From Alphaproteobacteria bacterium (GTDB taxonomy: Bacteria; Pseudomonadota; Alphaproteobacteria; TMED109), in NCBI GenBank assembly GCA_965203385.1, contig OZ241893.1, positions 269,986 through 333,985 of the forward strand: 64,000 nucleotides of DNA, read 5' to 3'. The notes beneath the pieces were generated by a model. The model ran no database searches, was not told where the DNA came from, and worked only from the letters and a program-made list of their open reading frames with translations. Below are positions 3,185-34,208 of the stretch, one piece after another. The stretch's first letter is position 1; every line of letters starts with the position of its first letter. Both the position numbers and the translations under genes were made by a program.

Positions 3185-4003
3185 ATGAGAGTCATGAAAG
3201 AAAAAACGGCCCGCCTTCCTCGAGGACGCGCACAGCTTGTCCGGGTACTGTCCGCCGCTGGCGACGTGATTCACGTCGACGACGTGGTGATTGCCCTCCA
3301 GCTCGACCGTACCGCCGCCGCCCAGCGTCTGTCGCGCTGGGTTGAACAGGGATGGCTGAGACGAGTGGGCCGTGGTGCCTATGTCGCCGCTTCTATCGAC
3401 ACCATGGGGTCGGATCGCGTCCTCGATGACCCATGGGTGCTCGTTCCCGCACTCTTCGCGCCAGCCTACATCGGAGGCCGTACGGCAGCCGAGTACTGGG
3501 ATCTGACCGAACAGATCTTCAAGGATGTCTTCGTGATGACCGCCCAGCCGGTGCGTCGGAAACACCAAGAGCGGCACGGTACGCTCTTTTCGCTTAAGCA
3601 CATCCACGAGCAGAAGATCTTCGGTACGAAGAATGTCTGGCGTCATCAGACGCGAGTCCCCGTCTCCGACCCGCATCGAACGATCATCGACATGCTCGAC
3701 GACCCGACGATCGGTGGCGGCATCCAGCATGTATCCGACTGCCTCGCAGCCTACCTGCGACGCGACGATCGCGACGACAGAGAGCTCGTCGATTACGCGG
3801 TGAGCCTCCGCAACGGAGCTGTCTTCAAGCGTCTCGGGTTTCTGGCCGAGCGCTTTCCTGGCGGTGCTGAACTGGGCCATCTTTGCGAGCCGCATCTGAG
3901 CGGCGGTCATGCGAAGCTCGATCCTGCCCAGGATGGGCCGCTCATCGTGACCAAATGGCGGCTCCGTGTGCCGGAGCGCTGGGCTCGCGAGGAAGCGCCG
4001 TGA
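3185..4003 (+). CDS. abiEi: type IV toxin-antitoxin system AbiEi-family antitoxin/transcriptional regulator
   Basis: The 272-aa ORF has an N-terminal winged-helix-like segment (AAAQRLSRWVEQGWLRRVGRGAY) and an AbiEi-like C-terminal domain. It is preceded by a low-GC intergenic region. Its stop overlaps the GTG of the next gene (GTGA). Confidence 0.8.
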   Translation: MRVMKEKTARLPRGRAQLVRVLSAAGDVIHVDDVVIALQLDRTAAAQRLSRWVEQGWLRRVGRGAYVAASIDTMGSDRVLDDPWVLVPALFAPAYIGGRTAAEYWDLTEQIFKDVFVMTAQPVRRKHQERHGTLFSLKHIHEQKIFGTKNVWRHQTRVPVSDPHRTIIDMLDDPTIGGGIQHVSDCLAAYLRRDDRDDRELVDYAVSLRNGAVFKRLGFLAERFPGGAELGHLCEPHLSGGHAKLDPAQDGPLIVTKWRLRVPERWAREEAP

Positions 4004-4980
4004 TCGATAAGCGCGAAATCCTCACGATAGCCCAGCAGATGTCGCTCACGCCCCACATCGTGGAGAAGGACTATGTACTCGGCTGGATGCTCGCCGGCAT
4101 TTATGGGCACGGAGGTCTCGCGGAGAACTGGATATTCAAAGGTGGCACGTGCCTGAAGAAATGCTTCTTCGAGACCTATCGATTCTCGGAGGATCTCGAT
4201 TTCACGCTTCGCGAACCGCAGCATCTTGACGCCGACTTCTTGAAGGGCGCATTTTCCGAAATTGGTGAATGGGTCTACGACCAAACCGGCATTGAGATTC
4301 CGGCCGACAAACAGGAATTCGATATCTACGAGAACCCACGGGGCCAATTCTCGTGCCAAGGCAAGATCAGTTACAAGGGCCCCGTCTCATCGACCCACGC
4401 CTTCCCGCGTATCAAGCTTGACTTGACCGCCGACGAACGGATCGTTCTCCCACCGATCCACGTGCAGATTTTCCATCCATACAGCGATGCTCCGGAAGGT
4501 GGCATCGAAGTCCTGACCTACGATTACACCGAGGCATTCGCGGAGAAGTTCAGAGCGCTCGCGGAACGGACGCGCCCACGCGATCTCTATGACGTCGTAC
4601 ATCTCTACCGGAATACCGAGGCACGTCCGGAACCGAAGCGCTTTATGGAAATCCTGCGCGCCAAGTGTGAATTCAAGGGCATCAGCGTTCCGCGCATGAC
4701 CGATCTTGAACCGCACCGTGCGGAACTTGAGAATGGTTGGATTCACATGCTGGAGCACCAACTCCCCGCGCTGCTCCCGGTCACGACGTTTTGGAACGTG
4801 CTCCCGGAAATCTTCGATTGGCTCCAAGGCGCCGTCGCTCCGCCGCTTACGGCGATGCCTGTCAGTGTCGGCAACACGCTCATCCGCGAGCGTGTAGTCG
4901 ATCTGCCCGCGGGCAGCCGAGGACAGAGTCTCATCGAGATGATCCGCTTTGCTGCTGCAAACGCTCATGAGGCGCGCTGA
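4000..4980 (+). pseudogene. abiEii: AbiEii/AbiGii-family nucleotidyltransferase toxin, 5' portion, reading frame interrupted by an IS element after codon 321
   Basis: GTG at 4000 lies in frame with ORF 3883..4980. EKDYVLGW, FKGGTCLKKCF and RFSEDLDF are AbiEii hallmarks. The last 6 codons and the stop appear to be IS-derived (see IS at 4963..6889). Confidence 0.75.
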
Positions 4981-7484: not shown

Positions 7485-8586
7485 ATGCAACCAGAGTGTA
7501 CCCCGAAGCAGTTGTGTTTTGAAGGCCTGGGTCGCCGTCGAGTGGAGGGGTGTTTCGACGGCGGTCGGCTGACGACGGACGGCGGCGTACTGCTCCTGCG
7601 GGAGGTCGACCAGCGGTTCCGCGTGACGGAGCGTCTGGCTGGCTGCTTCCAGGATCATCGCGGATCATCGCGCAGAAACGCGCATTGAGCATCGTCTGGA
7701 GACGCTGGTCGCCCAGCGGGTACTGGGGCTGGCGGCGGGGTATGAGGATTTGAACGATCACGACCGTCTGCGCACGGACAGCCTGCTGGCGCTGGCAAGC
7801 GGGTGCCAGGATCTCACCGGGGAACAGCGCCGCCGGGAGCGGGACCGGGGACAGGCGCTGGCGGGTTCCAGCACCCTGAACCGGCTCGAGCTCAGCGAGC
7901 CGGACACGGCGGCCGGAGACCGGTACAAGAAAATCGCGGCCGACCCGGCGGCGATGGACTCGCTGCTGGTGCAATTGTTCCTCGAGGCTCATGACGAACC
8001 GCCCGGGGAGATCGTGCTCGATCTGGATGCGACCAACGATCCGCTGTACGGGAACCAGGAGGGGCGGTTCTACCACGGCTAGTACGACGAATACTGCTAT
8101 CTTCCGTTGTACATCACTTGCGGCGACTTCGTCCTGTGCGCCCGGCTGCGTCCGGCCGATGTCGATCCGGCGAAAGGATCGGTGGAGGAACTGAAGCGGA
8201 TCGTGGCCCAGATCCGCGCCGTCTGGCCGAACCTCCCGATCCTGGTGCGCGGCGACGCCGGCTTCTGCCGCGATGAACTCTTGACCTGGTGTGAAGAGAC
8301 TGGCCTCGACTACGTGTTCGGTCTGGCCCGCAATAACCGTCTGGAAAAGTGGCTGGCGAAGGCGCTGCACAAGTCCCGGCGCCGCTGCGCCGCCACGGGG
8401 CAGGCGTCCCGGCGGTTCCGGGACCGGCGTTATCGGACCCAGAAATCCTGGAGCCGCACCCGCCGGGTGGTCGGCAAGGCCGAGTGGCTGCCGGGACTGA
8501 GAGGCGCGAATCCGCGTTTCGTCGTCACCAACCTGCCGGCGGATTCGGTCGGCGCACAGCCGCTGTACGAAAAAGTGTACTGCGCC
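7485..8586 (+). pseudogene. IS1380-family transposase, 5' part (10-bp duplication, in-frame TAG, then truncated by IS21 insertion)
   Basis: MQPECTPKQLCFEGLGRR...TTDGGVLLLREVD is followed by a frame break at the tandem GGATCATCGC duplication. LDLDATNDPLYGNQEG..FYHG is followed by TAG at 8080..8082. The same frame then continues through YDEYCYLPLY...EKVYCA. Confidence 0.85.
7652..7671. repeat. 10-bp tandem duplication (GGATCATCGC x2) that frameshifts the IS1380 transposase
   Basis: Deleting one copy restores FQDHRAETRIEHRLETLVAQRVLGLAAGYEDLNDHD in a single frame. Confidence 0.85.
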
Positions 8587-8793
8587 TGTTGGCGGCGAAA
8601 TAAAACGGCGGGATTCCGGCGGTAAGCCGCGCTTTTCCGAAGGTCGTTTCTTTCCCTATTGTACGACTGCCGGAGCTCCTGCCGCCGGGTGGCAGGAAGG
8701 CGCGTTCGGCGCCGAACGGATCACGGGTGGCTCAGCGGCCTCCTTGAGCCGGCCGGCCGCTGCCTTCGTTGGTTCCGGCCCGTCTGGCCGCTG

Positions 8794-8805
8794 CGTTACG
8801 TAACG
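8794..8805. promoter_or_regulatory. 12-bp perfect palindrome CGTTACGTAACG downstream of the 100-aa ORF
   Basis: Read directly. The same core recurs at 9156..9173 and in copy B. Confidence 0.4.
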
Positions 8806-8826
8806 GTGCTACAGCGGGTACCCGCA

Positions 8827-9129
8827 TCACCCGTCGCGACCGAACCCGCGGGGCAGTTCCTGTTCTGCCAGGGCTTCGAGGTCGAGGTCGTCAAGGGCTT
8901 CGATCGCCTGGTCCAGGAGTTCTGCGGTCGCCGTCGTCTCCAGCGCCTCTGGCAGGGCGTTCCGCCAGTCACGGTATTCCTCCCGGATCGCGATGATGGC
9001 GTCGATGGCGTCGTGCAGCCGCTGCCGGCGCGAGCGCCGGTCCGGCGGCGGGCGCCGCGCCGCCGGTGACTGACCCTCGCGCCGGCGCTGACGAAAGCGC
9101 CGTTGCCGTTCGGCGTTGGACAGTGCCAT
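8827..9129 (-). CDS. hypothetical 100-aa protein carried by the IS21-family element
   Basis: Internal ATG of ORF 8827..9528 (MALSNAERQRRFRQRRREG...PRGFGRDG). It is identical in both copies and has a basic N-terminus and an acidic helical C-terminus. Confidence 0.5.
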   Translation of the reverse strand: MALSNAERQRRFRQRRREGQSPAARRPPPDRRSRRQRLHDAIDAIIAIREEYRDWRNALPEALETTATAELLDQAIEALDDLDLEALAEQELPRGFGRDG

Positions 9130-9155
9130 CGGGTTGCCTTTCTTGATCCCTTGCG

Positions 9156-9173
9156 CCCCGTTACGTAACGGGG
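9156..9173. promoter_or_regulatory. 18-bp perfect palindrome CCCCGTTACGTAACGGGG upstream of the 100-aa ORF (candidate operator)
   Basis: Read directly. It lies 27 bp upstream of the ATG at 9129. Confidence 0.4.
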
Positions 9174-9269
9174 TCCGGAGACCGGGACTTCCGGCCGCCG
9201 CGCAGGCTTCGGCTGGCCGTCGGCACAGGGGTGCGCCGTGACCCCGCCGGCCCGGGCGTTCCGGCGGCG

Positions 9270-10133
9270 TCAGCCTGTCGCGGCGGCGCAGATGACGTCG
9301 TTCCAGTCGGCGTGTTCGGGCGGACGCCGTCGCTGGAACGCGACCTGCGAGGGGACCTCGAGTTGACGGCGCAAGGCTTCGGCCTGGCGCTCTCCGGCCT
9401 CGTCGTGGTCCTGTGCGAGGACGACGGTGCGGACGTTGGGTAGGGTGCGGGCGGCGAGTCCGATCTGCTCGCGTTGTCGGCGCGAGGGGGCGCCGGCGGT
9501 GGAGAGGAAGGCCTGGCTGGGGTGGCACTGCTCAATCTGGGCCAGGCTGAGGGCGTCGACGGCGCCTTCGGTGATGACGAGGGTTTTCAGGTCGGCGGCG
9601 TGTCCGGCGCGGACGGCGAACAGGCTGCGGGAGCCGCCGGTGGCGAAGCGTCTCGCGCCGTCGGGCGGGCCGATCTCGAAGCCGGTGAGGCGGCGGTGGC
9701 GGTCGCGGTGGGCGAAGAGGACGTGGCCGTGGCGGTCGCGGCGGATCAGCGGGCGGGCGGCGGCGAGCGTCTCCGGGCGGATGCCGCGGCCGACCAGCCA
9801 GGCCGGCGCCGGGTCCGGTACGGCCGCGTGCCAGTGGCGGCGGAAGTCGCGCGCGGTGCCCGCGGGTTTGCCGTAGCGGGTGCGGATCTCGGCGAAGGAG
9901 AGGCCGCGACGGAGCAGGAAGTCGATCGCGGTACCGTGGTCATCGCTATCGAGGGTACTGAAGTAGACCCAGTGTCCGTTGGGGCACAGCTTCGTGACGA
10001 GTTTCGCCTGGCCCGGCGCGCGGAGCACGGGGTTCGCGCGGGTCGAGGCCTGGGGATCGCGGACGTATCCCCAGTCCGCCGCGATGCCCTCGAGCGGCCG
10101 GCGCTTGAGCGCGTCGAAGTCGACGTAGGTCAT
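9270..10133 (-). CDS. Toprim-domain protein with DUF3991-like N-terminal region (primase-like)
   Basis: The 287-aa ORF starts MTYVDF... and its ATG overlaps the istB stop (ATGA). VITEGAVDALS and LAQDHDEAG look like Toprim Glu and DxD motifs. Confidence 0.65.
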   Translation of the reverse strand: MTYVDFDALKRRPLEGIAADWGYVRDPQASTRANPVLRAPGQAKLVTKLCPNGHWVYFSTLDSDDHGTAIDFLLRRGLSFAEIRTRYGKPAGTARDFRRHWHAAVPDPAPAWLVGRGIRPETLAAARPLIRRDRHGHVLFAHRDRHRRLTGFEIGPPDGARRFATGGSRSLFAVRAGHAADLKTLVITEGAVDALSLAQIEQCHPSQAFLSTAGAPSRRQREQIGLAARTLPNVRTVVLAQDHDEAGERQAEALRRQLEVPSQVAFQRRRPPEHADWNDVICAAATG

Positions 10134-10831
10134 CCGGCTTCGCGCCGGGTGCGCCACGAATCACCGTCGATGGTGATGAGGGCGGCGTCGTGCATCAGTC
10201 GGTCGACGGTGCCGGCGATGCCGGCGGCGCTGGGGAAGACGCGGTCCCACTGGGCGAAGGCCAGCGTGGTGGTGACCAGGGTGGAGCGGCGCTGGTAGCG
10301 CCGCGAGACGAGGGCGTAGAGGAGGTCGGCCGCGGGGCTCTTGAGGGTCACATATCCGATCTCGTCGAGGACCAGCAGGCGGGGCCGGGCGAGGATTCCG
10401 AGGCGGCGGCGCAGTTCGCTTCTCGAGGAGATCTCGACGAGTTTGTCGAGCAACTCCGGCGCTTTCTCGAAGCGGACGGTGTGGCCGTGCAGGAGCGCCT
10501 GGTGCGCGACGTTGGCGGCGATCATGGTCTTGCCGGTGCCCTGTCCGCCGACGAGCACGGCGTTGTCGGCCCGCTCGATGAAGGCGAGGCTCATCAGGGC
10601 CTCGACGCGGTCGCGGCTCAGGTCGCGCGGCCAGGTCCAGTCGAAGTCCGCCAGCGGCTTGAAGGCCGGCAGCCGCGCCCCGGCGCGGCGGCGGTCGTAG
10701 CTGCGGGTGTGGCGCACCCGTTCCTCGCTGGCGATCAGTTCCTCGACCCAGCCGGCGCTGCCGACCTCCTCCCAGCGTTCGAGCAGTCCGCGGAGGCCGA
10801 GGGCGGCGGCCCGTTTCCTGAGGTCGCTCAT
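10130..10831 (-). CDS. istB: IS21-family helper ATPase IstB
   Basis: 233 aa with a Walker A (VGGQGTGKT) and Walker B (LLVLDEIGY). The start overlaps the istA stop (ATGA). Confidence 0.9.
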   Translation of the reverse strand: MSDLRKRAAALGLRGLLERWEEVGSAGWVEELIASEERVRHTRSYDRRRAGARLPAFKPLADFDWTWPRDLSRDRVEALMSLAFIERADNAVLVGGQGTGKTMIAANVAHQALLHGHTVRFEKAPELLDKLVEISSRSELRRRLGILARPRLLVLDEIGYVTLKSPAADLLYALVSRRYQRRSTLVTTTLAFAQWDRVFPSAAGIAGTVDRLMHDAALITIDGDSWRTRREAG

Positions 10832-12321
10832 GACGCGTCCCGGTCGGCCGCGGCGGGCCGGTCGTAGGCGTCGAGGCCGGTCGCCCGGGGAGTCGTGCCG
10901 CGGCCGTCGCGGTCGTCGTCGGTGAGGCTGACAGGCGGCAGGCCCCGCTGGCGGCGGCGCTCCTCGAGGATGGCGCGCACCGTTTCGGGGTGATATGACC
11001 CGCGATCGTGCGCCATGGCGATCCCCCGGTCGACCTCGTCGGCGCCGTGCGTGTCGAGCAGCTTGGTCAGGATCCGGGCGCAGTACGTGACGTTCCGGCC
11101 CCGATGCCCGGCGTGCGCGAGCATCTCCTCCGCCCGCGGCACGGCGCGCAGCAGCCGGTCGCGCAGGCTCATGGCCCGGCCCTGCCGCTTGCGCGCCGCC
11201 AGCGCCCGGGCATGCTCCGGGTCGCTGACGGCCTGCTGCCGGTCGTAGCAGCGCCGGTGGCGCGCGACCTCGCGGGTACCGTCGAGGAGGCGGACGGTGC
11301 TGCGGTCGGCGGCGAGGGTCAGCGTCGCTCCGGCGAAGTCGGGCGGGACGCTGTAGTCGTTCGTATCGAACCGTGCGTAACAGGTCCGGTCGATGCGCGC
11401 CGGGCGGATCTCGTGGCACGAGAAGGGTGCGTCCGGCAGCGGCACCAGCATCGGCTTTTCCCGCTCGTAGGCGTCCCGGACGAGCTGGCGGTCGTCGTCC
11501 GGCCAGGGCCGCTCGGCGGCGATGCCGGCGCACCACGCCCGGGCCGCGGCGTTGAGTTCGTCGAGCGGGGCCGAGAGGTCGCGACCGGCGAAGAAGCTGG
11601 TGCGCACGAAGCGGACGCGGCGTTCCACGCGCCCCTTCTCCTGCGGCCGCCGGGGCCAGGCGGCGCTCGGCTCGAAGGCGTAGTGGGCGGCCAGCGCGAG
11701 CAGGGTCGAATGGAAGGTGACGGCCTTGCCCCGGCGCGTGATCACGGCGCTCTTGAGGTTGTCGAACAGGAGCCTTCTGGGCACACCGCCGAACGCTGCG
11801 AAGGCCTCGACATGGCCCTGCAGGAAGCTCGGCATCCGCGCGTCGTAAAACAGGCTGAGAGAGGTCTGGCGCGAATAGCTGAGGGTCACCAGCAGCCCCA
11901 TCAGCGGGCGCCGCGCCTGGCCGATATCGACCTTCCCGAACTCGGCCCAGTCGACCTGCGCCTGCTCCGCCGGCAGGAAGCGGAGCCGCAGCGACGGCTC
12001 GGGCCGCCGGGCGGGCCGGAGGTCGAGGGCGCGCAGGCTGTGGCGAAAGTGATCCTCCCCGCCCTGGTAGCCCCGCGCCTTGACCTGCCGCCAGAGCGTG
12101 CCGGCCGGCAGCCGCGGCTCCTCTTCGAGCTGCTTCCGGATGAAGGGCACGAAGGTGTCGATGAACTTCGCCCGCGGCCGCCGCTCCGCGCCGGCCGCCC
12201 GCAGCGCCCGCGTCACCGTACCGTGGTGTACGCCGAGATGCCGCGCGATGGTCCCGACCGGCCAGCCCTCGGCCCGCGACAGCCGCACGATCGTCGACCG
12301 CATCTCCTCGTCGATAGCCAT
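10828..12321 (-). CDS. istA: IS21-family transposase IstA
   Basis: 497 aa with an N-terminal HTH (GWPVGTIARHLGVHHGTV) and a DDE integrase core (QVDWAEFG...LFDNLKSAV). Confidence 0.9.
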   Translation of the reverse strand: MAIDEEMRSTIVRLSRAEGWPVGTIARHLGVHHGTVTRALRAAGAERRPRAKFIDTFVPFIRKQLEEEPRLPAGTLWRQVKARGYQGGEDHFRHSLRALDLRPARRPEPSLRLRFLPAEQAQVDWAEFGKVDIGQARRPLMGLLVTLSYSRQTSLSLFYDARMPSFLQGHVEAFAAFGGVPRRLLFDNLKSAVITRRGKAVTFHSTLLALAAHYAFEPSAAWPRRPQEKGRVERRVRFVRTSFFAGRDLSAPLDELNAAARAWCAGIAAERPWPDDDRQLVRDAYEREKPMLVPLPDAPFSCHEIRPARIDRTCYARFDTNDYSVPPDFAGATLTLAADRSTVRLLDGTREVARHRRCYDRQQAVSDPEHARALAARKRQGRAMSLRDRLLRAVPRAEEMLAHAGHRGRNVTYCARILTKLLDTHGADEVDRGIAMAHDRGSYHPETVRAILEERRRQRGLPPVSLTDDDRDGRGTTPRATGLDAYDRPAAADRDAS

Positions 12322-12354
12322 GAAATCGCCTCCCGTTGTGTCTCCATGACGCGA

Positions 12355-12795
12355 TCAGGGGTCCGCCAGCACCAGATGCGAGCACACCCGACCGCAGATG
12401 ACGCATCGAGGCACGGATTCGCGCCTCGATCGCGCCGGAAACACCCGACATAGGGGCTCGCGCCGGGGTCCGGAAGAGTGGTCCGTAACGGTTGGGCGGA
12501 AAGCGGCGCCAGCCGGGGCCGAAGGAGCGGCGCGGAACGGGCCCGCAGCCGCCGCCCGGGCGGCCAGGCGCGCCCGGAGCGCCTGACGCCTCCGGTAGCG
12601 CTGCTGACGGATCCGGCCCGTCTCGCGCCCCCGCTCGGTGCGGCGGTAGCGCCTCCGCGCCGCCCGGCGGTTCTCGACCCGGGACCGCTCGCTGCAGGCC
12701 CGGGAGCAGTACATCTGGCCGCGGTCGCAGGACCGGCAGATCACGACCTGCCGACGGCACCGCTGGCACGGGAACAGGCGTCCGGTCCGGCACAT
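12355..12795 (-). CDS. Cys-rich, Arg-rich hypothetical protein (zinc-ribbon-like) upstream of istA
   Basis: 146 aa. The N-terminus has CQRC-x6-CRSC-x6-C-x3-C and the C-terminus has CVICGRVC. It is intact in both copies. High-GC background makes a spurious ORF possible. Confidence 0.45.
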   Translation of the reverse strand: MCRTGRLFPCQRCRRQVVICRSCDRGQMYCSRACSERSRVENRRAARRRYRRTERGRETGRIRQQRYRRRQALRARLAARAAAAGPFRAAPSAPAGAAFRPTVTDHSSGPRREPLCRVFPARSRRESVPRCVICGRVCSHLVLADP

Positions 12796-13218
12796 CGCTC
12801 CGCCCGAGAGCGAGGTAGACCCAAACGCCGGAATGCCGGATACTCCACGGGAGTTCGGTCCCCGTGACCGGCTCGTTCAGGTGCGGCGCCGGGATTCTGG
12901 GTGAATCTGTGCCGGCGCCGCATCACTCTCTTCTTCCCTGCTGCGATACCACGCGGACACGGCCGTGGCAAAGCCGGCCCGACCGAACCGGCGACAAGAA
13001 CGCACTCGATCTATCCCGAATGGTGCCGTGCGCCCGACCCCTGCCTCAGGCGCGAATCTCACTCCGACACAGTACGGAAATCCGGCCGCCGGCCGGCGCA
13101 CACGATCGATACCCCACGGTACGACTCGACCAATAGGACCGTACAATGGGAAAAGGAACGATCCTGGCCAAAACGCGGCTTACCGCCAGAATCCCGCGCT
13201 TTTTCGCAGCCATCAACA

Positions 13219-13562
13219 GCGCCCGAGGGGACATGGAGAACCGCATCAAGGAACACCAACTCTGGCTCTTTGCCGATCGGACCTCGACCGCCAAGATGCG
13301 TTCCAACCAGTTGCGACTGTACTTCTCGACCTTCGCCGGGATGCTGATGACCCTGCTGCGCCGGTTTGGCCTGTCGGGCACCGCGCTGGCCCGGGCCACG
13401 GCCGACACGATCTGCACCCGGCTGTTCAAGATCGGTACCCGCATCACCGTCAGCCGGCGCCGGATCCGCATCGCGTTCGCGTCGGTCTATCCGCTCCAGT
13501 CGCTGTTCGCCCACGTGCTCGCGGCCCTGCGGGCGCCGCCGGCCCGCGCCGGCCCCGCCTGA
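13219..13562 (+). pseudogene. IS1380-family transposase, 3' part
   Basis: The frame of ORF 13146..13562 reads ..ARGDMENRIKEHQLWLFADRTSTAKMRSNQLRLYFS.., continuing the 5' part across the IS21 insertion. Confidence 0.85.
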
Positions 13563-22660: not shown

Positions 22661-22951
22661 ATGCAAATCAGAACCCCGCTGGAACTCGGTCTGGCCATCC
22701 GCGACCGACGTCGCAAGCTCAAGCTGAGCCAAAACGAGCTCGCGCACAAGGCCGGGGTCGGACGACAATGGATCGTCGCCATTGAGCAGGGCAAGCCACG
22801 GGCCGAACTGGGACTGGTGTTTCGCACCCTTGCCGCCTTGGACCTTCCGCTGACAATCCATACCGATTTTCGCCAGCTTTCGCCGAGCGACGACCTGGAG
22901 CCCGTCGATATCGACGCTGTCGTGAACGCCGCTCGAGAAGTTCAGAAATGA
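22661..22951 (+). CDS. hipB: HipB-type XRE antitoxin
   Basis: The ATG at 22661 lies in ORF 22331..22951. LSQNELAHKAGVGRQWIVAIEQGK is the HTH. Its stop overlaps the hipA start (ATGA). Confidence 0.75.
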   Translation: MQIRTPLELGLAIRDRRRKLKLSQNELAHKAGVGRQWIVAIEQGKPRAELGLVFRTLAALDLPLTIHTDFRQLSPSDDLEPVDIDAVVNAAREVQK

Positions 22952-23841
22952 CCGGAGTTCTTGTGGTCGTGGCCGACCGCCGGATCATGGGCGAGATTCA
23001 GCGCAACCGGCGGGGCCGGCTGACGTTCATTTACGATGACCGCTGGCGGTCCATGGATGCAGCTTATCCGCTCTCCCTTTCCATGCCGGTCTTGGTCGCC
23101 GAACATGCGCACGCCAGGATCGAGCCCTGGCTCCGGGGACTGCTGCCCGACAACGAAATTATCCTGGACCGCTGGGGGAAGCGGTTCCACGTATCGTCCC
23201 GCAACGCCTTCGCCTTGCTTGCCGCAGTTGGTGAGGACTGCCCTGGCGCCATCCAGCTGGTGCGGCCGGACCGGGTTGACGACGTGCTTCAGGGGGATGA
23301 CCAGCAAATCGAATGGATGACCGAAGCCGATATCGCCGGTCGCCTGCAGCTCCTGAAAGAAGATCAGGCCGCGTGGCGGATCGCGGGCGATATCGGTCAA
23401 TTCAGCCTGGCTGGTGCGCAGCCGAAGACGGCGCTCCTCTTCGACGGTCGGCGTTGGGGGGTACCGCACGGCCCGGTGCCAACCACCCACATCCTGAAAC
23501 CACCCGTTCACGGGCTTGACGGCCACGCTGAAAACGAGCACCTGTGCCTGACGCTGGCCCGGACATTGGGACTGCCGGCGGCGCATTCGGAAGTCCGCAG
23601 GTTTGCAGGTGAACCGGCAATCATCGTGGAACGCTACGACCGAATCAGACGCACCGGGTCCATCCGGCGCCTTCACCAGGAAGACATGTGCCAGGTCCTG
23701 GGACTTCCCCCGACAAGGAAATACCAGAACGAAGGCGGCCCCGGATATGCCGAACTGGGGGAAGCGATCCGGGCGCACTCGGGAAGTCCTGGCGAGGATG
23801 CGTGGACGTTCGCACGTGCCATCATGCTGAACTGGATCATC
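22948..23841 (+). pseudogene. hipA: HipA-family Ser/Thr kinase toxin, 5' part (298 codons), interrupted by IS21-family copy B
   Basis: N-terminal coupling domain, then FSLAGAQPKTALL, HILKP and LHQEDMCQVLG. The frame is broken after ..AIMLNWII. Confidence 0.85.
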
Positions 23842-24264
23842 TGTTGATGGCTGCGAAAAAGCGCGGGATTCTGGCGGTAAGCCGCGTTTTGGCCAGGATC
23901 GTTCCTTTTCCCATTGTACGGTCCTATTGGTCGAGTCGTACCGTGGGGTATCGATCGTGTGCGCCGGCCGGCGGCCGGATTTCCGTACTGTGTCGGAGTG
24001 AGATTCGCGCCTGAGGCAGGGGTCGGGCGCACGGCACCATTCGGGATAGATCGAGTGCGTTCTTGTCGCCGGTTCGGTCGGGCCGGCTTTGCCACGGCCG
24101 TGTCCGCGTGGTATCGCAGCAGGGAAGAAGAGAGCGATGCGGCGCCGGCACAGATTCAGCAAGAATCCCGGCGCCGCACCTGAACGAGCTGGTCACGGGG
24201 ACCGAACTCCCGTGGAGTATCCGGCATTTCGGCGTTTGGGTCTACCTCGCTCTCGGGCGGAGCG

Positions 24265-24705
24265 ATGTGCCAGACCGGACGCCTGTTCCCGTGCCAGCGG
24301 TGCCGTCGGCAGGTCGTGATCTGCCGGTCCTGCGACCGTGGCCAGATGTACTGCTCCCGGGCCTGCAGCGAGCGGTCCCGGGTCGAGAACCGCCGGGCGG
24401 CGCGGAGGCGCTACCGCCGCACCGAGCGGGGGCGCGAGACGGGCCGGATCCGTCAGCAGCGCTACCGGAGGCGTCAGGCGCTCCGGGCGCGCCTGGCCGC
24501 CCGGGCGGCGGCCGCGGGCACGGTCCGCGCCGCTCCTTCGGCCCCGGCCGGCGCCGCTTTCCGCCCAACCGTTACGGACCACTCTTCCGGACCCCGTCGA
24601 GAGCCCCTATGTCGGGTGTTTCCGGCGCGATCGAGGCGCGAATCCGTGCCTCGATGCGTCATCTGCGGTCGGGTGTGCTCGCACCTGGTGCTGGCGGACC
24701 CCTGA
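24265..24705 (+). CDS. Cys-rich, Arg-rich hypothetical protein (zinc-ribbon-like), copy B
   Basis: 146 aa, with 3 aa differences from copy A and no disruption. Confidence 0.45.
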   Translation: MCQTGRLFPCQRCRRQVVICRSCDRGQMYCSRACSERSRVENRRAARRRYRRTERGRETGRIRQQRYRRRQALRARLAARAAAAGTVRAAPSAPAGAAFRPTVTDHSSGPRREPLCRVFPARSRRESVPRCVICGRVCSHLVLADP

Positions 24706-24738
24706 TCGCGTCATGGAGACACAACGAGAGGCGATTTC

Positions 24739-26232
24739 ATGGCTATCGACGAGGAGATGCGGTCGACGATCGTGCGGCTGTCGCGGGCCGAGGGCTGGCC
24801 GGTCGGGACCATCGCGCGGCATCTCGGCGTACACCACGGTACGGTGACGCGGGCGCTGCGGGCGGCCGGCGCGGAGCGGCGGCCGCGGGCGAAGTTCATC
24901 GACACCTTCGTGCCCTTCATCCGGAAGCAGCTCGAAGAGGAGCCGCGGCTGCCGGCCGGCACGCTCTGGCGGCAGGTCAAGGCGCGGGGCTACCAGGGCG
25001 GGGAGGATCACTTTCGCCACAGCCTGCGCGCCCTCGACCTCCGGCCCGCCCGGCGGCCCGAGCCGTCGCTGCGGCTCCGCTTCCTGCCGGCGGAGCAGGC
25101 GCAGGTCGACTGGGCCGAGTTCGGGAAGGTCGACATCGGCCAGGCGCGGCGCCCGCTGATGGGGCTGCTGGTGACCCTCAGCTATTCGCGCCAGACCTCT
25201 CTCAGCCTGTTTTACGACGCGCGGATGCCAAGCTTCCTGCAGGGCCATGTCGAGGCCTTCGAGGCGTTCGGCGGTGTGCCCAGAAGGCTTCTGTTCGACA
25301 ACCTCAAGAGCGCCGTGATCACGCGCCGGGGCAAGGCCGTCACCTTCCATTCGACCCTGCTCGCGCTGGCCGCCCACTACGCCTTCGAGCCGAGCGCCGC
25401 CTGGCCCCGGCAACCGCAGGAGAAGGGGCGCGTGGAACGCCGCGTCCGCTTCGTGCGCACCAGCTTCTTCGCCGGCCGCGACCTCTCGGCCCCGCTCGAC
25501 GAACTCAACGCCGCGGCCCGGGCGTGGTGCGCCGGCATCGCCGCCGAACGGCCCTGGCCGGACGACGACCGCCAGCTCGTCCGGGACGCCTACGAGCGGG
25601 AAAAGCCGATGCTGGTGCCGCTGCCGGACGCACCCTTCTCGTGCCACGAGATCCGCCCGGCGCGCATCGACCGGACCTGTTACGCACGGTTCGATACGAA
25701 CGACTACAGCGTCCCGCCCGACTTCGCCGGAGCGACGCTGACCCTCGCCGCCGACCGCAGCACCGTCCGCCTCCTCGACGGTACCCGCGAGGTCGCGCGC
25801 CACCGGCGCTGCTACGACCGGCAGCAGGCCGTCAGCGACCCGGAGCATGCCCGGGCGCTGGCGGCGCGCAAGCGGCACGGCCGGGCCATGAGCCTGCGCG
25901 ACCGGCTGCTGCGCGCCGTGCCGCGGGCGGAGGAGACGCTCGCGCACGCCGGGCATCGGGGCCGGAACGTCACGTACTGCGCCCGGATCCTGACCAAGCT
26001 GCTCGACACGCACGGCGCCGACGAGGTCGACCGGGCGATCGCCATGGCGCACGATCGCGGGTCATATCACCCCGAAACGGTGCGCGCCATCCTCGAGGAG
26101 CGCCGCCGCCAGCGGGGCCTGCCGCCTGTCAGCCTCACCGACGCCGACCGCGACGGCCGCGGCACGACTCCCCGGGCGACCCGCCTCGACGCCTACGACC
26201 GGCCCGCCGCGGCTGACCCGGACGCGTCATGA
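24739..26232 (+). CDS. istA: IS21-family transposase IstA, copy B
   Basis: 497 aa, with 8 aa differences from copy A by my count. Confidence 0.9.
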   Translation: MAIDEEMRSTIVRLSRAEGWPVGTIARHLGVHHGTVTRALRAAGAERRPRAKFIDTFVPFIRKQLEEEPRLPAGTLWRQVKARGYQGGEDHFRHSLRALDLRPARRPEPSLRLRFLPAEQAQVDWAEFGKVDIGQARRPLMGLLVTLSYSRQTSLSLFYDARMPSFLQGHVEAFEAFGGVPRRLLFDNLKSAVITRRGKAVTFHSTLLALAAHYAFEPSAAWPRQPQEKGRVERRVRFVRTSFFAGRDLSAPLDELNAAARAWCAGIAAERPWPDDDRQLVRDAYEREKPMLVPLPDAPFSCHEIRPARIDRTCYARFDTNDYSVPPDFAGATLTLAADRSTVRLLDGTREVARHRRCYDRQQAVSDPEHARALAARKRHGRAMSLRDRLLRAVPRAEETLAHAGHRGRNVTYCARILTKLLDTHGADEVDRAIAMAHDRGSYHPETVRAILEERRRQRGLPPVSLTDADRDGRGTTPRATRLDAYDRPAAADPDAS

Positions 26233-26930
26233 GCGACCTCAGGAAACGGGCCGCCGCCCTCGGCCTCCGCGGACTGCTCGAACGCTGGGAGGAGGTCGGC
26301 AGCGCCGGCTGGGTCGAGGAACTGATCGCCAGCGAGGAACGGGTGCGCCACACCCGCAGCTACGACCGCCGCCGCGCCGGGGCGCGGCTGCCGGCCTTCA
26401 AGCCGCTGGCGGACTTCGACTGGACCTGGCCGCGCGACCTGAGCCGCGACCGCGTCGAGGCCCTGATGAGCCTCGCCTTCATCGAGCGGGCCGACAACGC
26501 CGTGCTCGTCGGCGGACAGGGCACCGGCAAGACCATGATCGCCGCCAACGTCGCGCACCAGGCGCTCCTGCACGGCCACACCGTCCGCTTCGAGAAAGCG
26601 CCGGAGTTGCTCGACAAACTCGTCGAGATCTCCTCGAGAAGCGAACTGCGCCGCCGCCTCGGAATCCTCGCCCGGCCCCGCCTGCTGGTCCTCGACGAGA
26701 TCGGATACGTGACCCTCAAGAGCCCCGCGGCCGACCTCCTCTACGCCCTCGTCTCGCGGCGCTACCAGCGCCGCTCCACCCTGGTCACCACCACGCTGGC
26801 CTTCGCCCAGTGGGACCGCGTCTTCCCCAGCGCCGCCGGCATCGCCGGCACCGTCGACCGACTGATGCACGACGCCGCCCTCATCACCATCGACGGTGAT
26901 TCGTGGCGCACCCGGCGCGAAGCCGGATGA
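26229..26930 (+). CDS. istB: IS21-family helper ATPase IstB, copy B
   Basis: 233 aa, identical to copy A. Confidence 0.9.
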   Translation: MSDLRKRAAALGLRGLLERWEEVGSAGWVEELIASEERVRHTRSYDRRRAGARLPAFKPLADFDWTWPRDLSRDRVEALMSLAFIERADNAVLVGGQGTGKTMIAANVAHQALLHGHTVRFEKAPELLDKLVEISSRSELRRRLGILARPRLLVLDEIGYVTLKSPAADLLYALVSRRYQRRSTLVTTTLAFAQWDRVFPSAAGIAGTVDRLMHDAALITIDGDSWRTRREAG

Positions 26931-27790
26931 CCTACGTCGACTTCGACGCGCTCAAGCGCCGGCCGCTCGAGGGCATCGCGGCGGACTGGGGATACGTCCG
27001 CGATCCCCAGGCCTCGACCCGCGCGAACCCCGTGCTCCGCGCGCCGGGCCAGGCGAAACTCGTCACGAAACTGTGCCCCAACGGACACTGGGTCTACTTC
27101 AGTACCCTCGATAGCGATGACCACGGTACCGCGATCGACTTCCTGCTCCGTCGCGGCCTCTCCTTTGCCGAGATCCGCGCCCGCTACGGCCAGCCCGCGG
27201 GCACCGCGCGCGACTTCCGCCGCCACTGGCACGCGGCCCTGCCGGATCCGGCGCCGGCCTGGCTGGTCGGCCGCGGCATCCGCCCGGAGACGCTCGCCGC
27301 CGCCCGCCCGCTGATCCGCCGCGACCGCCAGGGCCGCGTCCTCTTCGCCCACCGCGACCGCCACCGCCGCCTCACCGGCTTCGAGATCGGCCCGCCCGAC
27401 GGCGCGAGACGCTTCGCCACCGGCGGCTCCCGCAGCCTGTTCGCCGTCCGCGCCGGACACGCCGCCGACCTGAAAACCCTCGTCATCACCGAAGGCGCCG
27501 TCGACGCCCTCAGCCTGGCCCAGATTGAGCAGTGCCACCCCAGCCAGGCCTTCCTCTCCACCGCCGGCGCCCCCTCGCGCCGACAACGCGAGCAGATCGG
27601 ACTCGCCGCCCGCACCCTCCCCAACGTCCGCACCGTCGTCCTCGCACAGGACCACGACGAGGCCGGAGAGCGCCAGGCCGATACCTTGCGCCGCCAACTC
27701 GAAGTCCCCTCGCAGGTCGCGTTCCAGCGACGCCGTCCGCCCGAACACGCCGACTGGAACGACGTCATCTGCGCCGCCGCGACAGGCTGA
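26927..27790 (+). CDS. Toprim-domain / DUF3991-like protein, copy B
   Basis: 287 aa with ATGA overlap with istB. It has 7 aa differences from copy A. Confidence 0.65.
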   Translation: MTYVDFDALKRRPLEGIAADWGYVRDPQASTRANPVLRAPGQAKLVTKLCPNGHWVYFSTLDSDDHGTAIDFLLRRGLSFAEIRARYGQPAGTARDFRRHWHAALPDPAPAWLVGRGIRPETLAAARPLIRRDRQGRVLFAHRDRHRRLTGFEIGPPDGARRFATGGSRSLFAVRAGHAADLKTLVITEGAVDALSLAQIEQCHPSQAFLSTAGAPSRRQREQIGLAARTLPNVRTVVLAQDHDEAGERQADTLRRQLEVPSQVAFQRRRPPEHADWNDVICAAATG

Positions 27791-27886
27791 CGCCGCCGGA
27801 CCGCCCGGGCCGGCGGGGTCACGGCGCACCCCTGTGCCGACGGCCAGCCGAAGCCTGCGCGGCGGCCGGAAGTCCCGGTCTCCGGA

Positions 27887-27904
27887 CCCCGTTACGTAAC
27901 GGGG
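27887..27904. promoter_or_regulatory. 18-bp palindrome CCCCGTTACGTAACGGGG upstream of the 100-aa ORF, copy B
   Basis: Read directly. Confidence 0.4.
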
Positions 27905-27930
27905 CGCAAGGGATCAAGAAAGGCAACCCG

Positions 27931-28233
27931 ATGGCACTGTCCAACGCCGAACGGCAACGGCGCTTTCGTCAGCGCCGGCGCGAGGGTCAGTCACCGGCGG
28001 CGCGGCGCCCGCCGCCGGACCGGCGCTCGCGCCGGCAGCGGCTGCACGACGCCATCGACGCCATCATCGCGATCCGGGAGGAATACCGTGACTGGCGGAA
28101 CGCCCTGCCAGAGGCGCTGGAGACGACGGCAACCGCAGAACTCCTGGACCAGGCGATCGAAGCCCTTGACGACCTCGACCTCGAAGCCCTGGCAGAACAG
28201 GAACTGCCCCGCGGGTTCGGTCGCGACGGGTGA
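27931..28233 (+). CDS. hypothetical 100-aa protein carried by the IS21-family element, copy B
   Basis: Identical translation to copy A. Confidence 0.5.
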   Translation: MALSNAERQRRFRQRRREGQSPAARRPPPDRRSRRQRLHDAIDAIIAIREEYRDWRNALPEALETTATAELLDQAIEALDDLDLEALAEQELPRGFGRDG

Positions 28234-28254
28234 TGCGGGTACCCGCTGTAGCAC

Positions 28255-28266
28255 CGTTACGTAACG
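28255..28266. promoter_or_regulatory. 12-bp palindrome CGTTACGTAACG downstream of the 100-aa ORF, copy B
   Basis: Read directly. Confidence 0.4.
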
Positions 28267-28478
28267 CAGCGGCCAGACGGGCCGGAACCAACGAAGGCAG
28301 CGGCCGGCCGGCTCAAGGAGGCCGCTGAGCCACCCGTGATCCGTTCGGCGCCGAACGCGCCTTCCTGTCACCCGGCGGCAGGAGCTCCGGCAGTCGTACA
28401 ATAGGGAAAGAAACGACCTTCGGAAAAGCGCGGCTTACCGCCGGAATCCCGCCGTTTTATTTCGCCGCCAACATCATC

Positions 28479-28871
28479 GGCAACACCGATGCACACGCAA
28501 AGAACTTCTCCATGCTCATTGGCGTTCCGGGGCAATCACGCCTGGCGCCACTCTACGATATGGCCAGCATGCTGCCTTACGGCTTCAGTGCCAGAAGCCT
28601 GAAGATGGCAACCAGGATCGGCGGGAAATACCGGCTCGAAGAGGTTGCCTCACGCCATTGGTCACGGTTCGCCGCAGACGTACGCCTGCCGCCCGCTGAA
28701 TTCCTGGACATGGGCGTGGCCATGGCCGAAGCGTTGCCCGCCGCATTTGGCGAGATTGTCGAGCGCGCTCGCGCTGACGGACTCGATCACCCGATCCTGG
28801 AGCGTATGGTCGAGGTCCTGGACGCTCGCTCCGCTCGCTGCGCCCAAGTGCTGAGATCGGCGGCAGATTGA
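28479..28871 (+). pseudogene. hipA: HipA-family toxin, 3' part
   Basis: GNTDAHAKNFSML..LAPLYDM is the catalytic/activation region of HipA kinases. It is in frame with ORF 28512..28871. Confidence 0.85.
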
Positions 28872-34016: not shown

Positions 34017-34208
34017 GGCCAGATCGCCTTGTTAGTGTCGAAATCAACGGCAACGGTGTTTGCTTCCTGAATGATTCTCATCTTGTATCCACCTGCGTAA
34101 TCCAGCTTGGTATAGACCACTCCCTCGCAGTCTGAAGGCGTTTCCGCACTGCCTCGCCCATCAACTCTTCCAGCTGCCCAACCGCCCGTGACCGGTTCAC
34201 CCGCGCCA

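What the first reader, a model, noticed from the sequence alone, without database searches (positions are those of the whole stretch)
8587..13218. IS21-family element twice the normal size, carrying three extra intact ORFs
Seen: a 4,632-bp unit is bounded by about 80-bp imperfect inverted repeats beginning TGTTG and by a 5-bp target duplication (GCGCC). Its gene order is Cys-rich ORF, istA, istB, Toprim ORF, 100-aa ORF. A second copy of identical length lies at 23842..28473. Established: canonical IS21-family members are about 2-2.7 kb and encode only IstA and IstB. By my count from the translations the two copies differ by 8/497 aa (IstA), 0/233 (IstB), 7/287 (Toprim), 3/146 (Cys-rich) and 0/100 (small ORF). 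None of the ten ORFs has a frameshift or stop, although neighbouring accessory genes are full of them. Inference: the three extra ORFs travel with the IS and are maintained, so they may be accessory transposition or maintenance functions rather than random cargo.
Basis: partly seen in the sequence, partly recalled or inferred. Interest (0 to 1): 0.8.

Follow-up and report, generated by a model that had tools for sequence, protein, structure and literature searches.

The report
IS21 element carrying a primase-like gene
This is an intact, recently mobile IS21-type jumping gene that, unusually, also carries a DnaG/T7-like primase gene and a zinc-ribbon gene inherited with its transposase genes, which makes it a candidate for a transposon that supplies its own DNA-priming enzyme.

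Summary
There are two 4,632-bp copies, 98.9% identical and inverted relative to each other. Each has ~80-nt TGTTG…CAACA inverted repeats and its own 5-bp target duplication, and each interrupts a gene whose frame is restored by in-silico excision.

The unit is a genuine IS21-family element (IstA DDE transposase, IstB AAA+ helper) with three extra ORFs.

- **"Toprim ORF".** It is homologous to the catalytic core of DnaG/T7-gp4-type primases, and its acidic residues are invariant. Its start codon overlaps the istB stop in every lineage checked. It has co-diverged with IstA/IstB in about 15 metagenome-assembled genomes, one with at least 40 copies. Its nearest non-IS relatives sit on conjugative elements and plasmids.
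- **Cys-rich ORF.** It belongs to a large family with no Pfam model. It also lies, unannotated, upstream of istA in 3.4-kb Toprim-less IS21 relatives on plasmids of cultured bacteria.
- **100-aa ORF.** It is lineage-specific cargo with its own palindromic operator-like sites.

My best mechanistic guess, which is inferred, is that the primase-like protein primes DNA synthesis in the proposed copy-out/paste-in pathway. Toprim-less sister elements show it is not obligatory. I rate this a new variant of a known kind. I could not query ISfinder.

The parts
8587..13218 (-). Copy A of the 4,632-bp IS21-family element (genes read on the - strand)
   Evidence: Exact homology limits against copy B. Excision restores the IS1380-like frame.
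23842..28473 (+). Copy B of the element, inverted relative to copy A, 51 mismatches and no indels
   Evidence: Excision restores the hipA-like ORF.
8582..8586 (.). Target-site duplication GCGCC of copy A (second copy at 13219-13223)
13219..13223 (.). Target-site duplication GCGCC of copy A (partner of 8582-8586)
23837..23841 (.). Target-site duplication TCATC of copy B (second copy at 28474-28478)
28474..28478 (.). Target-site duplication TCATC of copy B (partner of 23837-23841)
13139..13218 (-). Left terminal inverted repeat (the istA-proximal end) of copy A. It starts TGTTGATGG and has a subterminal ATTGTACGG repeat about 70 nt in.
   Evidence: The same layout (terminal TGTCGG plus subterminal TTGTCGG) is seen in related lineages.
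8587..8666 (-). Right terminal inverted repeat of copy A (…CCGCCAACA on the gene strand)
12802..12932 (-). Conserved leader of about 131 nt, predicted to be structured, immediately upstream of the Cys-rich ORF (copy B: 24128-24258 +)
   Evidence: RNAalifold gives 32 pairs, 5 with compensatory changes, and 95.5% of cells paired against 32-46% when slid. A covariance model finds it in the eight searched copies that carry the left end, representing six lineages (98.9-142 bits). No Rfam match.
12355..12795 (-). Cys-rich ORF, 146 aa: zinc-ribbon-like N-terminus, two long Arg-rich helices, C-terminal CxxC (copy B: 24265-24705 +)
   Evidence: 22 homologues; invariant C20, C23, C30, C34 and C134, with C13 and C131 at >=90%. 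AF2 pLDDT 78. 3,563 representative clusters match its profile. No Pfam model. Present upstream of istA in all full-length relatives.
10828..12321 (-). istA, DDE transposase, 497 aa (copy B: 24739-26232 +)
   Evidence: NF033546 at 234 bits. IS5376 IstA structure 8q4d at E 1.7e-34, with the D (QVDW), D (LFDN) and E (GRVER) motifs aligned.
10130..10831 (-). istB, AAA+ helper ATPase, 233 aa; its ATG overlaps the istA stop as ATGA (copy B: 26229-26930 +)
   Evidence: PF01695 at 171 bits. IS5376 IstB 8q3w at E 2e-29, with Walker A GQGTGKT and Walker B LVLDE. Junction read.
9270..10133 (-). Primase-like gene (DUF3991 plus Toprim), 287 aa; its ATG overlaps the istB stop as ATGA (copy B: 26927-27790 +)
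   Evidence: Pfam. Invariant E189, D242, D244, D276, N278 and D279. Foldseek top hits are DnaG and T7 gp4 primases. The profile matches T7 gp4 residues 65-218 at E 1.9e-6. PHROGs DNA primase families match. Junction read.
8827..9129 (-). 100-aa ORF, a lineage-specific cargo cassette (copy B: 27931-28233 +)
   Evidence: 32 homologues. Within this IS family it is present only in the OZ219747/OZ219746 MAG lineage. It is found in other contexts on plasmids and elsewhere.
9155..9170 (.). Palindrome CCCCGTTACGTAACGGGG upstream of the 100-aa ORF; a second copy lies downstream at 8794-8809
   Evidence: (pair I20). Similar half-palindromes lie upstream of homologues in L092, L095 and L091.

Best explanation
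**Shown**
- The unit is a complete, recently transposed member of a distinct lineage of IS21-family insertion sequences, 4.1-5.3 kb long.
- IstA (DDE transposase) and IstB (AAA+ helper) form the transposition core.
- The ends are IS21-type: TG...CA, long imperfect inverted repeats and a subterminal repeat of the tip sequence. Insertion makes duplications of about 5-8 bp.
- Two further genes are fixed parts of the operon.
  - Upstream is a zinc-ribbon, Arg-rich helical protein, preceded by a conserved structured leader.
  - Downstream, translationally coupled to istB, is a protein homologous to the catalytic core of DnaG/T7-gp4-type primases. All Toprim acidic residues are intact. It has no zinc ligands and no helicase-binding domain.

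**Inferred history**
- The primase-like gene was captured once from a conjugative element or plasmid and then inherited with istAB.
- It was later lost, or swapped out, in the 3.4-kb relatives found on plasmids of cultured bacteria.

**Inferred mechanism**
- IS21 is proposed to move by a replicative copy-out/paste-in route.
- I propose that the IS-encoded primase-like protein lays down primers on the displaced or lagging strand while the element is copied.
- This would make the replication step less dependent on the host's DnaB-DnaG primosome, which would favour high copy number and movement between distant hosts.
- The Cys-rich protein is most likely a nucleic-acid-binding regulator or architectural factor of this IS21 subgroup.
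- The 100-aa ORF is an autoregulated cargo cassette.

Identity and architecture: about 0.95. The stated confidence refers to the whole statement, including the priming mechanism.
For: - **Architecture and mobility:**
- **IS21 core:**
- **Same four-gene unit in other genomes.** It has its own ends and duplications of about 5-8 bp in other genomes. There are at least 40 copies in MAG OZ219747.1, and 32 of the 33 (Cys-rich: 32 of 32) examined are intact for all four core genes.
- **Primase homology.** Foldseek gives Aquifex DnaG 4.6e-8, T7 gp4 1e-7 and E. coli DnaG core 7e-7. The profile matches T7 gp4 residues 65-218, which span the RNA-polymerase domain, at E 1.9e-6. PHROGs primase families match residues 97-281. 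E189, D242/D244 and D276/D279 are invariant.
- **Operon integration.** The start codon overlaps the istB stop in the window, L018, L049, L054 and L056, and lies 1 nt after it in L014.
- **Co-inheritance.** Distance matrices correlate: IstA-Toprim r 0.78, IstB-Toprim r 0.86, against IstA-IstB r 0.88. IS-borne Toprim proteins form one clade apart from non-IS homologues.
- **Selection.** dN/dS is 0.37-0.64 for Toprim and 0.29-0.58 for IstA, with no stops in six diverged lineages.
- **Origin.** Homologues at 41% identity or less lie beside TrbI, TraF and topoisomerase III. In PLSDB they are in 504 plasmids, 324 of them conjugative, and on 5-16-kb plasmids.
- **Host spread.** Proteins more than 90% identical are reported from MAGs labelled Chloroflexota, Gemmatimonadota and Gammaproteobacteria.
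Against: - No biochemical or genetic data exist, so primase activity is inferred from homology only.
- The AF2 model has low confidence over residues 90-180, the N-terminal subdomain of the polymerase core.
- DnaG-type primases normally need a zinc-binding domain and a helicase partner. Here the zinc ligands and the helicase-binding domain are missing.
- Toprim-less 3.4-kb relatives with the same Cys-rich ORF exist in several copies on plasmids. They nest with the Toprim-bearing L065/L067 on the IstB tree. The gene is therefore dispensable for transposition in this subgroup.
- Canonical IS21 and IS5376 transpose with IstA and IstB alone (PMC10122671).
- dN/dS values are compressed by GC-rich codon bias and are only comparative.
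- All carriers are metagenome-assembled genomes, so host assignments may include binning errors.
Confidence: 0.4

Rival explanations
1. The primase-like gene is long-lived cargo with no role in transposition chemistry. For example, it could help whatever replicon carries the IS (plasmid or ICE establishment after transfer), or give the host some benefit. The IS merely spreads it.
For: - Its relatives are plasmid and conjugative-element genes.
- Toprim-less sister elements transpose without it.
- The same element also picks up clear cargo, the 100-aa cassette, at the same end.
Against: - Its start codon overlaps the istB stop in five of six lineages checked, and lies 1 nt after it in the sixth.
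- It co-diverges with IstA/IstB like a core gene.
- It is kept intact in nearly all of at least 33 chromosomal copies of one genome, where a single copy would suffice for a host or plasmid function.
- No copy was seen on a plasmid in PLSDB.
Confidence: 0.3
2. The Toprim protein acts as a nuclease or nickase rather than a primase. It could cut the non-transferred 5' strand at the IS ends, a TnsA-like role, or process the junction, and so change the transposition outcome.
For: - Toprim domains also occur in nucleases (established knowledge: OLD family, RNase M5, RecR-like proteins).
- The zinc-binding and helicase-binding domains of true primases are absent.
- IstA is known to cleave 3' ends only (Reimmann and Haas 1990, as cited in PMC10122671).
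Against: - Sequence and fold similarity extends beyond the Toprim fold into the N-terminal subdomain of the primase polymerase core.
- No nuclease family appeared in Pfam, NCBIfam, PADLOC or PDB searches.
Confidence: 0.12
3. The extra genes serve in conflict with the host or with other mobile elements, as a defence or anti-defence function, rather than in movement.
For: - There is a weak PADLOC hit of the Toprim region to a DnaG-like domain of a defence-associated reverse transcriptase (E 5e-10).
- The window is rich in toxin-antitoxin and restriction genes.
Against: - The PADLOC hit covers only the generic Toprim region.
- No defence model matches the Cys-rich or the small ORF.
- Operon coupling to istB points to a transposition-linked role.
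Confidence: 0.08

Closest known systems
Canonical IS21-family elements (IS21, IS5376)
   Same: - IstA is homologous to the solved IS5376 IstA, with the DDE motifs aligned, and IstB has Walker A and B motifs.
- istA and istB overlap.
- The ends are TG...CA with long imperfect inverted repeats and subterminal repeats.
- Insertion makes short target duplications.
   Different: - The element is 4.6 kb with five ORFs. PMC10122671 describes family members as having only two ORFs.
- IstA is 497 aa against about 400 aa.
- There is an upstream Cys-rich gene, a structured leader and a downstream primase-like gene.
3.4-kb IS21 relatives on plasmids of Aromatoleum aromaticum EbN1 (NC_006823.1) and Mesorhizobium huakuii (NZ_CP050299.1)
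   Same: - IstA is 47% identical to the window's.
- TGTYR... ends.
- An unannotated homologue of the Cys-rich ORF lies upstream of istA (HMM E 1.9e-27 and 9e-26).
   Different: - No primase-like gene. Instead a conserved 70-73-aa ORF overlaps the istB stop.
- The leader motif was not clearly found.
DnaG / phage T7 gp4-type primases
   Same: - The catalytic core is homologous: an N-terminal subdomain plus Toprim with EGxxD, DxD and DxxD acidic motifs.
   Different: - No Cys/His zinc ligands in the N-terminal domain.
- No helicase or helicase-binding domain.
- The protein is encoded inside an insertion sequence.
DUF3991-Toprim proteins of conjugative elements and small plasmids (functional analogues: the conjugative primases RP4 TraC and ColIb-P9 Sog, named from my own knowledge)
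   Same: - The domain architecture is the same, with 27-41% identity.
- They are stand-alone proteins of mobile DNA.
   Different: - Those lie next to transfer or replication genes, not next to istAB.
- The IS-borne proteins form their own clade.
Mu and Tn7-type systems (DDE transposase plus AAA+ regulator plus extra proteins)
   Same: - The logic is the same: a Mu-like transposase with an AAA+ target selector (PMC10122671, PMC11208146) plus additional element-encoded factors. Their effect on how the element is processed or replicated is my own knowledge for Mu/Tn7 and an inference for this element.
   Different: - No TnsA-like endonuclease, TniQ/TnsD or resolvase was found.
- The extra enzyme here is primase-like, and I know of no described transposon of this class with one.
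IS1 InsA-type small zinc-finger regulators (from my own knowledge)
   Same: - A small Cys-rich, basic protein encoded upstream of the transposase gene in the same orientation.
   Different: - No sequence or fold similarity was detected.
- The function here is untested.

Membership tests
IS21 family | IstA: DDE transposase of the IS21 type | tested here: met
   NF033546 scores 234 bits against a cut-off of 160. IS5376 IstA (8q4d) matches at E 1.7e-34, with the D, D and E motifs aligned.
IS21 family | IstB: AAA+ helper ATPase encoded directly downstream of istA | tested here: met
   PF01695 scores 171 bits against a cut-off of 24. The NCBIfam equivalog NF038214 scores 192.8, just under its cut-off of 200. 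IS5376 IstB matches at E 2e-29, with Walker A and B present. The istA/istB junction is an ATGA overlap.
IS21 family | Terminal inverted repeats ending 5'-TG...CA-3' with internal repeats of the tip sequence | tested here: met
   TGTTG...CAACA ends with an 80-nt repeat. There is a subterminal ATTGTACGG about 70 nt in from both ends. The pattern is clearer in relatives, with terminal TGTCGG and subterminal TTGTCGG.
IS21 family | Short target-site duplication (4-8 bp, from my own knowledge) | tested here: met
   5 bp in both window copies. 5 to about 8 bp in relatives.
IS21 family | Typical make-up: two ORFs only, about 2-2.7 kb | tested here: not met
   The element is 4,632 bp with five ORFs. 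PMC10122671 describes family members as composed of two ORFs. This is a typical feature, not a defining one, so I read the element as a variant of the family.
DnaG / T7 gp4-type primase | Toprim fold with conserved Glu, DxD and a further acidic pair | tested here: met
   E189, D242, D244, D276 and D279 are invariant in 18 sequences. Toprim_2, Toprim_3 and Toprim_4 Pfam models match.
DnaG / T7 gp4-type primase | N-terminal subdomain of the RNA-polymerase core preceding Toprim | tested here: met
   The profile aligns to T7 gp4 residues 65-218 at E 1.9e-6. Foldseek places DnaG and gp4 primases at ranks 1-30. Caveat: model pLDDT is 37-65 in this region.
DnaG / T7 gp4-type primase | Zinc-binding domain with Cys/His ligands | tested here: not met
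   N-terminal residues 1-90 fold confidently (pLDDT about 90), but the alignment has no conserved Cys/His set and no zf-CHC2 hit.
DnaG / T7 gp4-type primase | Helicase domain or helicase-binding C-terminal domain | tested here: not met
   The protein ends about 10 residues after the last Toprim motif.
DnaG / T7 gp4-type primase | Template-directed primer synthesis | not testable with these tools
   This needs a biochemical assay.
IS with passenger genes ('transporter IS' in ISfinder's sense) | Genes unrelated to transposition carried between the inverted repeats | tested here: inconclusive
   The 100-aa cassette fits, being lineage-specific and also found on plasmids. Whether the primase-like and Cys-rich genes are passengers or accessory functions is the open question.
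Composite transposon made of the two window copies | One shared target duplication outside the pair | tested here: not met
   Each copy has its own different 5-bp duplication and interrupts its own gene.

The most novel reading that the evidence does not exclude
A bacterial DDE insertion sequence that brings its own primase. The primase would be translationally coupled to a DnaC-paralogous ATPase (IstB) and would prime copying of the element during copy-out/paste-in. This would make the replicative step host-independent, a minimal 'self-priming' transposon. It could possibly also allow short-lived replication of the excised circle.
Probability: 0.3. Interest if true: 0.8.

Novelty: new variant of a known kind. 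Interest (0 to 1): 0.6.

Why it matters
How IS21-type elements deal with the uncut strand, and how the proposed copy-out replication is primed, is still open. PMC11208146 treats the replicative pathway as a proposal only.

A natural lineage that has kept a primase-like gene coupled to istB gives a direct genetic handle on that step. It has Toprim-less sister elements for comparison and one genome with at least 40 intact copies.

The work also points to two further features of IS21 biology. One is a family of zinc-ribbon proteins (3,563 representative clusters) with no Pfam model, left unannotated in the two RefSeq records checked. The other is a conserved leader structure.

The element also appears to have spread among diverse uncultured bacteria, which is relevant to genome plasticity in those communities.

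Tried and rejected
1. Megablast of the 4.6-kb unit against 72,556 PLSDB plasmids found no match.
2. tblastn of the Cys-rich protein against PLSDB found no match at database-scale E-values. A profile HMM did find it in L089 and L090.
3. The exact look-up of P0001, the source-genome protein, returned nothing.
4. The Rfam scan of the element found nothing.
5. Foldseek of the Cys-rich model against the PDB gave no significant match.
6. I asked whether the Cys-rich protein is a trans-acting zinc-binding domain for the primase. I rejected this as its main role, because the same ORF is present in Toprim-less relatives.
7. I asked whether contigs of about 4.1-4.5 kb in metagenomes are circular forms or tandem junctions. 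They are not. They begin in flanking DNA and stop at the element end, as expected for collapsed repeats.
8. A second DUF3991-Toprim gene in L013 lies between two other IS21 elements. I tested whether this is an independent association. A metagenome scan found only distant relatives without istAB nearby, so it is unresolved.
9. I considered a composite transposon formed by the two inverted copies and rejected it, because the target duplications are separate.
10. I looked for similarity between the 70-73-aa ORF of Toprim-less relatives and ORFs in the region downstream of the primase-like gene, including the 100-aa ORF. A BLAST comparison of these ORFs found none. By eye it also did not resemble the N-terminus of the primase-like protein.
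11. Full-text literature searches (IS21 with primase, Toprim or passenger genes; DUF3991) found no description of this architecture. The Berger and Haas 2001 review is not held.
12. ISfinder could not be queried.

Full report
**1.

- Copy A (8587..13218) and copy B (23842..28473) are each 4,632 bp.
- They are inverted relative to each other and align without gaps, with 51 mismatches (98.9% identity). Similarity ends exactly at the stated coordinates.
- The ends read TGTTG...CAACA, and the terminal inverted repeat is 80 nt at 76% complementarity.
- Copy A is flanked by GCGCC and copy B by TCATC, both 5 bp.
- Removing the element and one duplicate restores an IS1380-like transposase frame around copy A. 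It restores an uninterrupted HipA-like ORF around copy B. These are real, independent transposition events, not a composite transposon.
- The five ORFs, their lengths and the amino-acid differences between copies (8/497, 0/233, 7/287, 3/146, 0/100) are exactly as reported, and no ORF is broken.

**2. The core is IS21**

- IstA passes the NCBIfam IS21 transposase model (234 bits, cut-off 160). It aligns to the solved IS5376 IstA with the three catalytic motifs in place.
- IstB matches Pfam IstB_IS21 (171 bits) and the solved IS5376 IstB, with Walker A and B motifs.
- istA and istB overlap by ATGA.
- The ends carry a subterminal repeat of the tip sequence about 70 nt in, clearer in relatives.
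- PMC10122671 describes family members as having two ORFs. The size and gene content here are therefore atypical.

**3. The unit is a family, not a one-off**

- The Toprim protein has about 50 homologues at 54% identity or more. Wherever context could be read, they lie directly after istB.
- A scan of one genome per species found the order Cys-rich, istA, istB, Toprim in about ten MAGs, plus cut or decayed copies in about nine more. All are MAGs: Paracoccaceae, other Alphaproteobacteria and one Acidimicrobiales.
- One MAG (OZ219747.1) has at least 40 copies. Of 33 examined, 32 are intact for IstA, IstB and Toprim; the Cys-rich ORF was matched in 32 of them, all intact.
- Proteins more than 90% identical are also reported from MAGs labelled Chloroflexota, Gemmatimonadota and Gammaproteobacteria.
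- In three other genomes I defined the ends from multiple copies: 4,129 bp, about 4,444 bp and about 4,466 bp, all TGTCG...CGACA. Target duplications are mostly 5-7 bp; two copies are imperfect.
- No isolate genome and no PLSDB plasmid carries a close relative.

**4. The primase-like gene**

- Pfam sees DUF3991 plus Toprim.
- An 18-sequence alignment shows invariant E189 (EGAVDA), D242/D244 (DxD) and D276/N278/D279.
- The AlphaFold2 model (pLDDT 73.8; low over residues 90-180) finds DnaG-type primases as its first 30 PDB matches: Aquifex 4.6e-8, T7 gp4 1e-7, E. coli core 7e-7.
- A sequence profile alone matches T7 gp4 residues 65-218, which span the RNA-polymerase domain and not only Toprim, at E 1.9e-6.
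- PHROGs primase families match residues 97-281.
- The N-terminal 90 residues fold confidently but have no zinc ligands. There is no helicase-binding domain.
- The protein is therefore homologous to the primase catalytic core but is not a canonical DnaG.

**5. The primase-like gene is integrated with the transposition genes**

- Its start codon overlaps the istB stop in the window (ATGA) and in L018, L049, L054 and L056. In L014 it lies 1 nt after the stop.
- Pairwise distances among seven lineages correlate with those of IstA (r 0.78, Mantel p about 6e-4) and IstB (r 0.86). That is about as well as IstA correlates with IstB (r 0.88).
- dN/dS against the window copy is 0.37-0.64, compared with 0.29-0.58 for IstA and 0.29-0.68 for IstB. 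None of the six diverged lineages has a stop. These values are compressed by GC-rich codon usage and are only comparative.
- IS-borne proteins form one clade, separate from homologues at 41% identity or less.
- Those more distant homologues lie next to TrbI, TraF and topoisomerase III. They also occur on 504 PLSDB plasmids, 324 of them conjugative, including 5-16-kb plasmids.
- The simplest history is one capture from a conjugative element or plasmid.

**6. The primase-like gene is not indispensable**

- The closest IstA sequences in PLSDB (47% identity) belong to 3,384- and 3,444-bp elements on plasmids of Aromatoleum aromaticum EbN1 and Mesorhizobium huakuii.
- These have istA, istB and a 70-73-aa ORF, but no Toprim gene.
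- On an IstB neighbour-joining tree these Toprim-less elements group, with 100% bootstrap, with the Toprim-bearing L065/L067 lineage. They lie inside the wider Toprim-bearing set. This implies loss or module exchange.

**7. The Cys-rich ORF**

- It has 22 word-search homologues, with C20, C23, C30, C34 and C134 invariant and C13 and C131 at 90% or more. These are followed by an Arg-rich region.
- The model (pLDDT 78) shows a small beta unit, two long helices and a C-terminal strand. No PDB fold matches.
- Its profile finds 3,563 representative clusters among 1.84 billion proteins, with no Pfam model and no informative names.
- It is present upstream of istA in every full-length relative. It is also present, unannotated, in the 3.4-kb Toprim-less elements (HMM E 1.9e-27 and 9e-26).
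- It is absent from two more distant IS21 elements in L002.
- It is therefore an accessory gene of an IS21 subgroup and older than the primase capture. A regulator or architectural role is my inference.

**8. The 100-aa ORF**

- It has 32 homologues.
- Within this IS family it occurs only in the window's lineage and in the MAG comprising OZ219747.1 and OZ219746.1 (43% identity). There the tail is about 1.3 kb with repeated modules.
- Most lineages have only 160-195 bp after the Toprim gene.
- Homologues also sit on a plasmid of about 8.4 kb with MobA and ParA genes, in an IS-rich chromosomal region, and beside another IS21.
- A palindrome, CGTTACGTAACG, flanks the ORF in the window. Related half-sites precede homologues elsewhere.
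- I read it as an autoregulated cargo cassette.

**9. Mechanism**

- *Shown:* an IS21-type element that has moved recently, with two conserved extra genes in one operon.
- *Established in the literature:* IstA cleaves 3' ends. [quoted passage not shown] A replicative copy-out/paste-in route has been proposed, in which the non-transferred strand stays uncut (PMC10122671, PMC11208146).
- *Inferred:* copying the element needs priming. An element-encoded primase made together with IstB could supply it and lessen dependence on the host primosome. This would fit the high copy numbers and the apparent spread across phyla.
- *Rivals:* long-lived cargo, a nicking role for the 5' strand, or a conflict function. 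None is excluded. Section 6 shows the gene is at most an enhancer, not a requirement.

**10. Novelty**

- Full-text searches found no description of an IS21-family element with a primase or Toprim gene.
- All carriers I found are MAGs.
- ISfinder could not be searched, so 'uncatalogued' is probable but not proven.
- I rate this a new variant of a known kind, of moderate to high interest.

Noticed in passing
window 12802-12932 (- strand) and 24128-24258 (+ strand): A leader of about 131 nt, just upstream of the Cys-rich ORF, is more conserved than the coding regions. It folds into a multi-helix structure of 32 pairs, 5 with compensatory changes. A covariance model finds it in all eight searched copies with a left end (six Toprim-bearing lineages), but not clearly in Toprim-less relatives. 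There is no Rfam family.
   Followed up: partly
window 9155-9170 and 8794-8809 (copy B: around 27891 and 28256): The palindrome CGTTACGTAACG flanks the 100-aa ORF. Similar half-palindromes lie just upstream of homologues of that ORF in L092, L095 and L091, which suggests an operator.
   Followed up: partly
L013/L002 2173-3117: A second DUF3991-Toprim gene, only 30% identical, is wedged between two other IS21 elements that lack the Cys-rich ORF, inside a disrupted copy of this family. Whether it belongs to an IS could not be settled.
   Followed up: partly
L018-L046, L048, L059, L066, L072 (MAG OZ219747.1 / OZ219746.1): At least 40 copies of a version of about 5.3 kb occur in one 4.8-Mb alphaproteobacterial MAG. 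The four core genes are almost always intact. The tail is variable and holds tandemly repeated small-ORF modules.
   Followed up: partly
L089 5763-5984, L090 5733-5945, L095 2077-2292: Toprim-less 3.4-kb relatives carry a conserved 70-73-aa ORF that overlaps the istB stop, in the position where the primase-like gene sits here. Its function is unknown.
   Followed up: partly
window 7750-8586 and 13224-13560: Copy A interrupts an IS1380-like transposase gene that also has an internal stop (…FYHG*YDEYCY…). This is an IS inserted in an already decayed IS.
   Followed up: partly
window about 22800-23841 and 28479-28870: Copy B interrupts a HipA-like kinase toxin gene. The frame is seamless after in-silico excision.
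   Followed up: partly
L006 / L050, flanks of the element: One copy in the Paracoccaceae MAG CBDETS010000007.1 is inserted into the terminal repeat of another, related IS21-type end, with a 7-bp duplication (ACGATCC).
   Followed up: no
window 3883-4980 and 30558-36812: The neighbourhood holds an AbiEii-type toxin gene and what looks like a type III restriction-modification pair (ResIII helicase and N6/N4 methylase). This is an accessory, defence-rich region.
   Followed up: no
L095 85-3930: A Toprim-less IS21 (istA, istB, 71-aa ORF) is followed by an IS630-type transposase and then by a homologue of the 100-aa ORF. The cassette may also have been associated with other IS21 elements.
   Followed up: no
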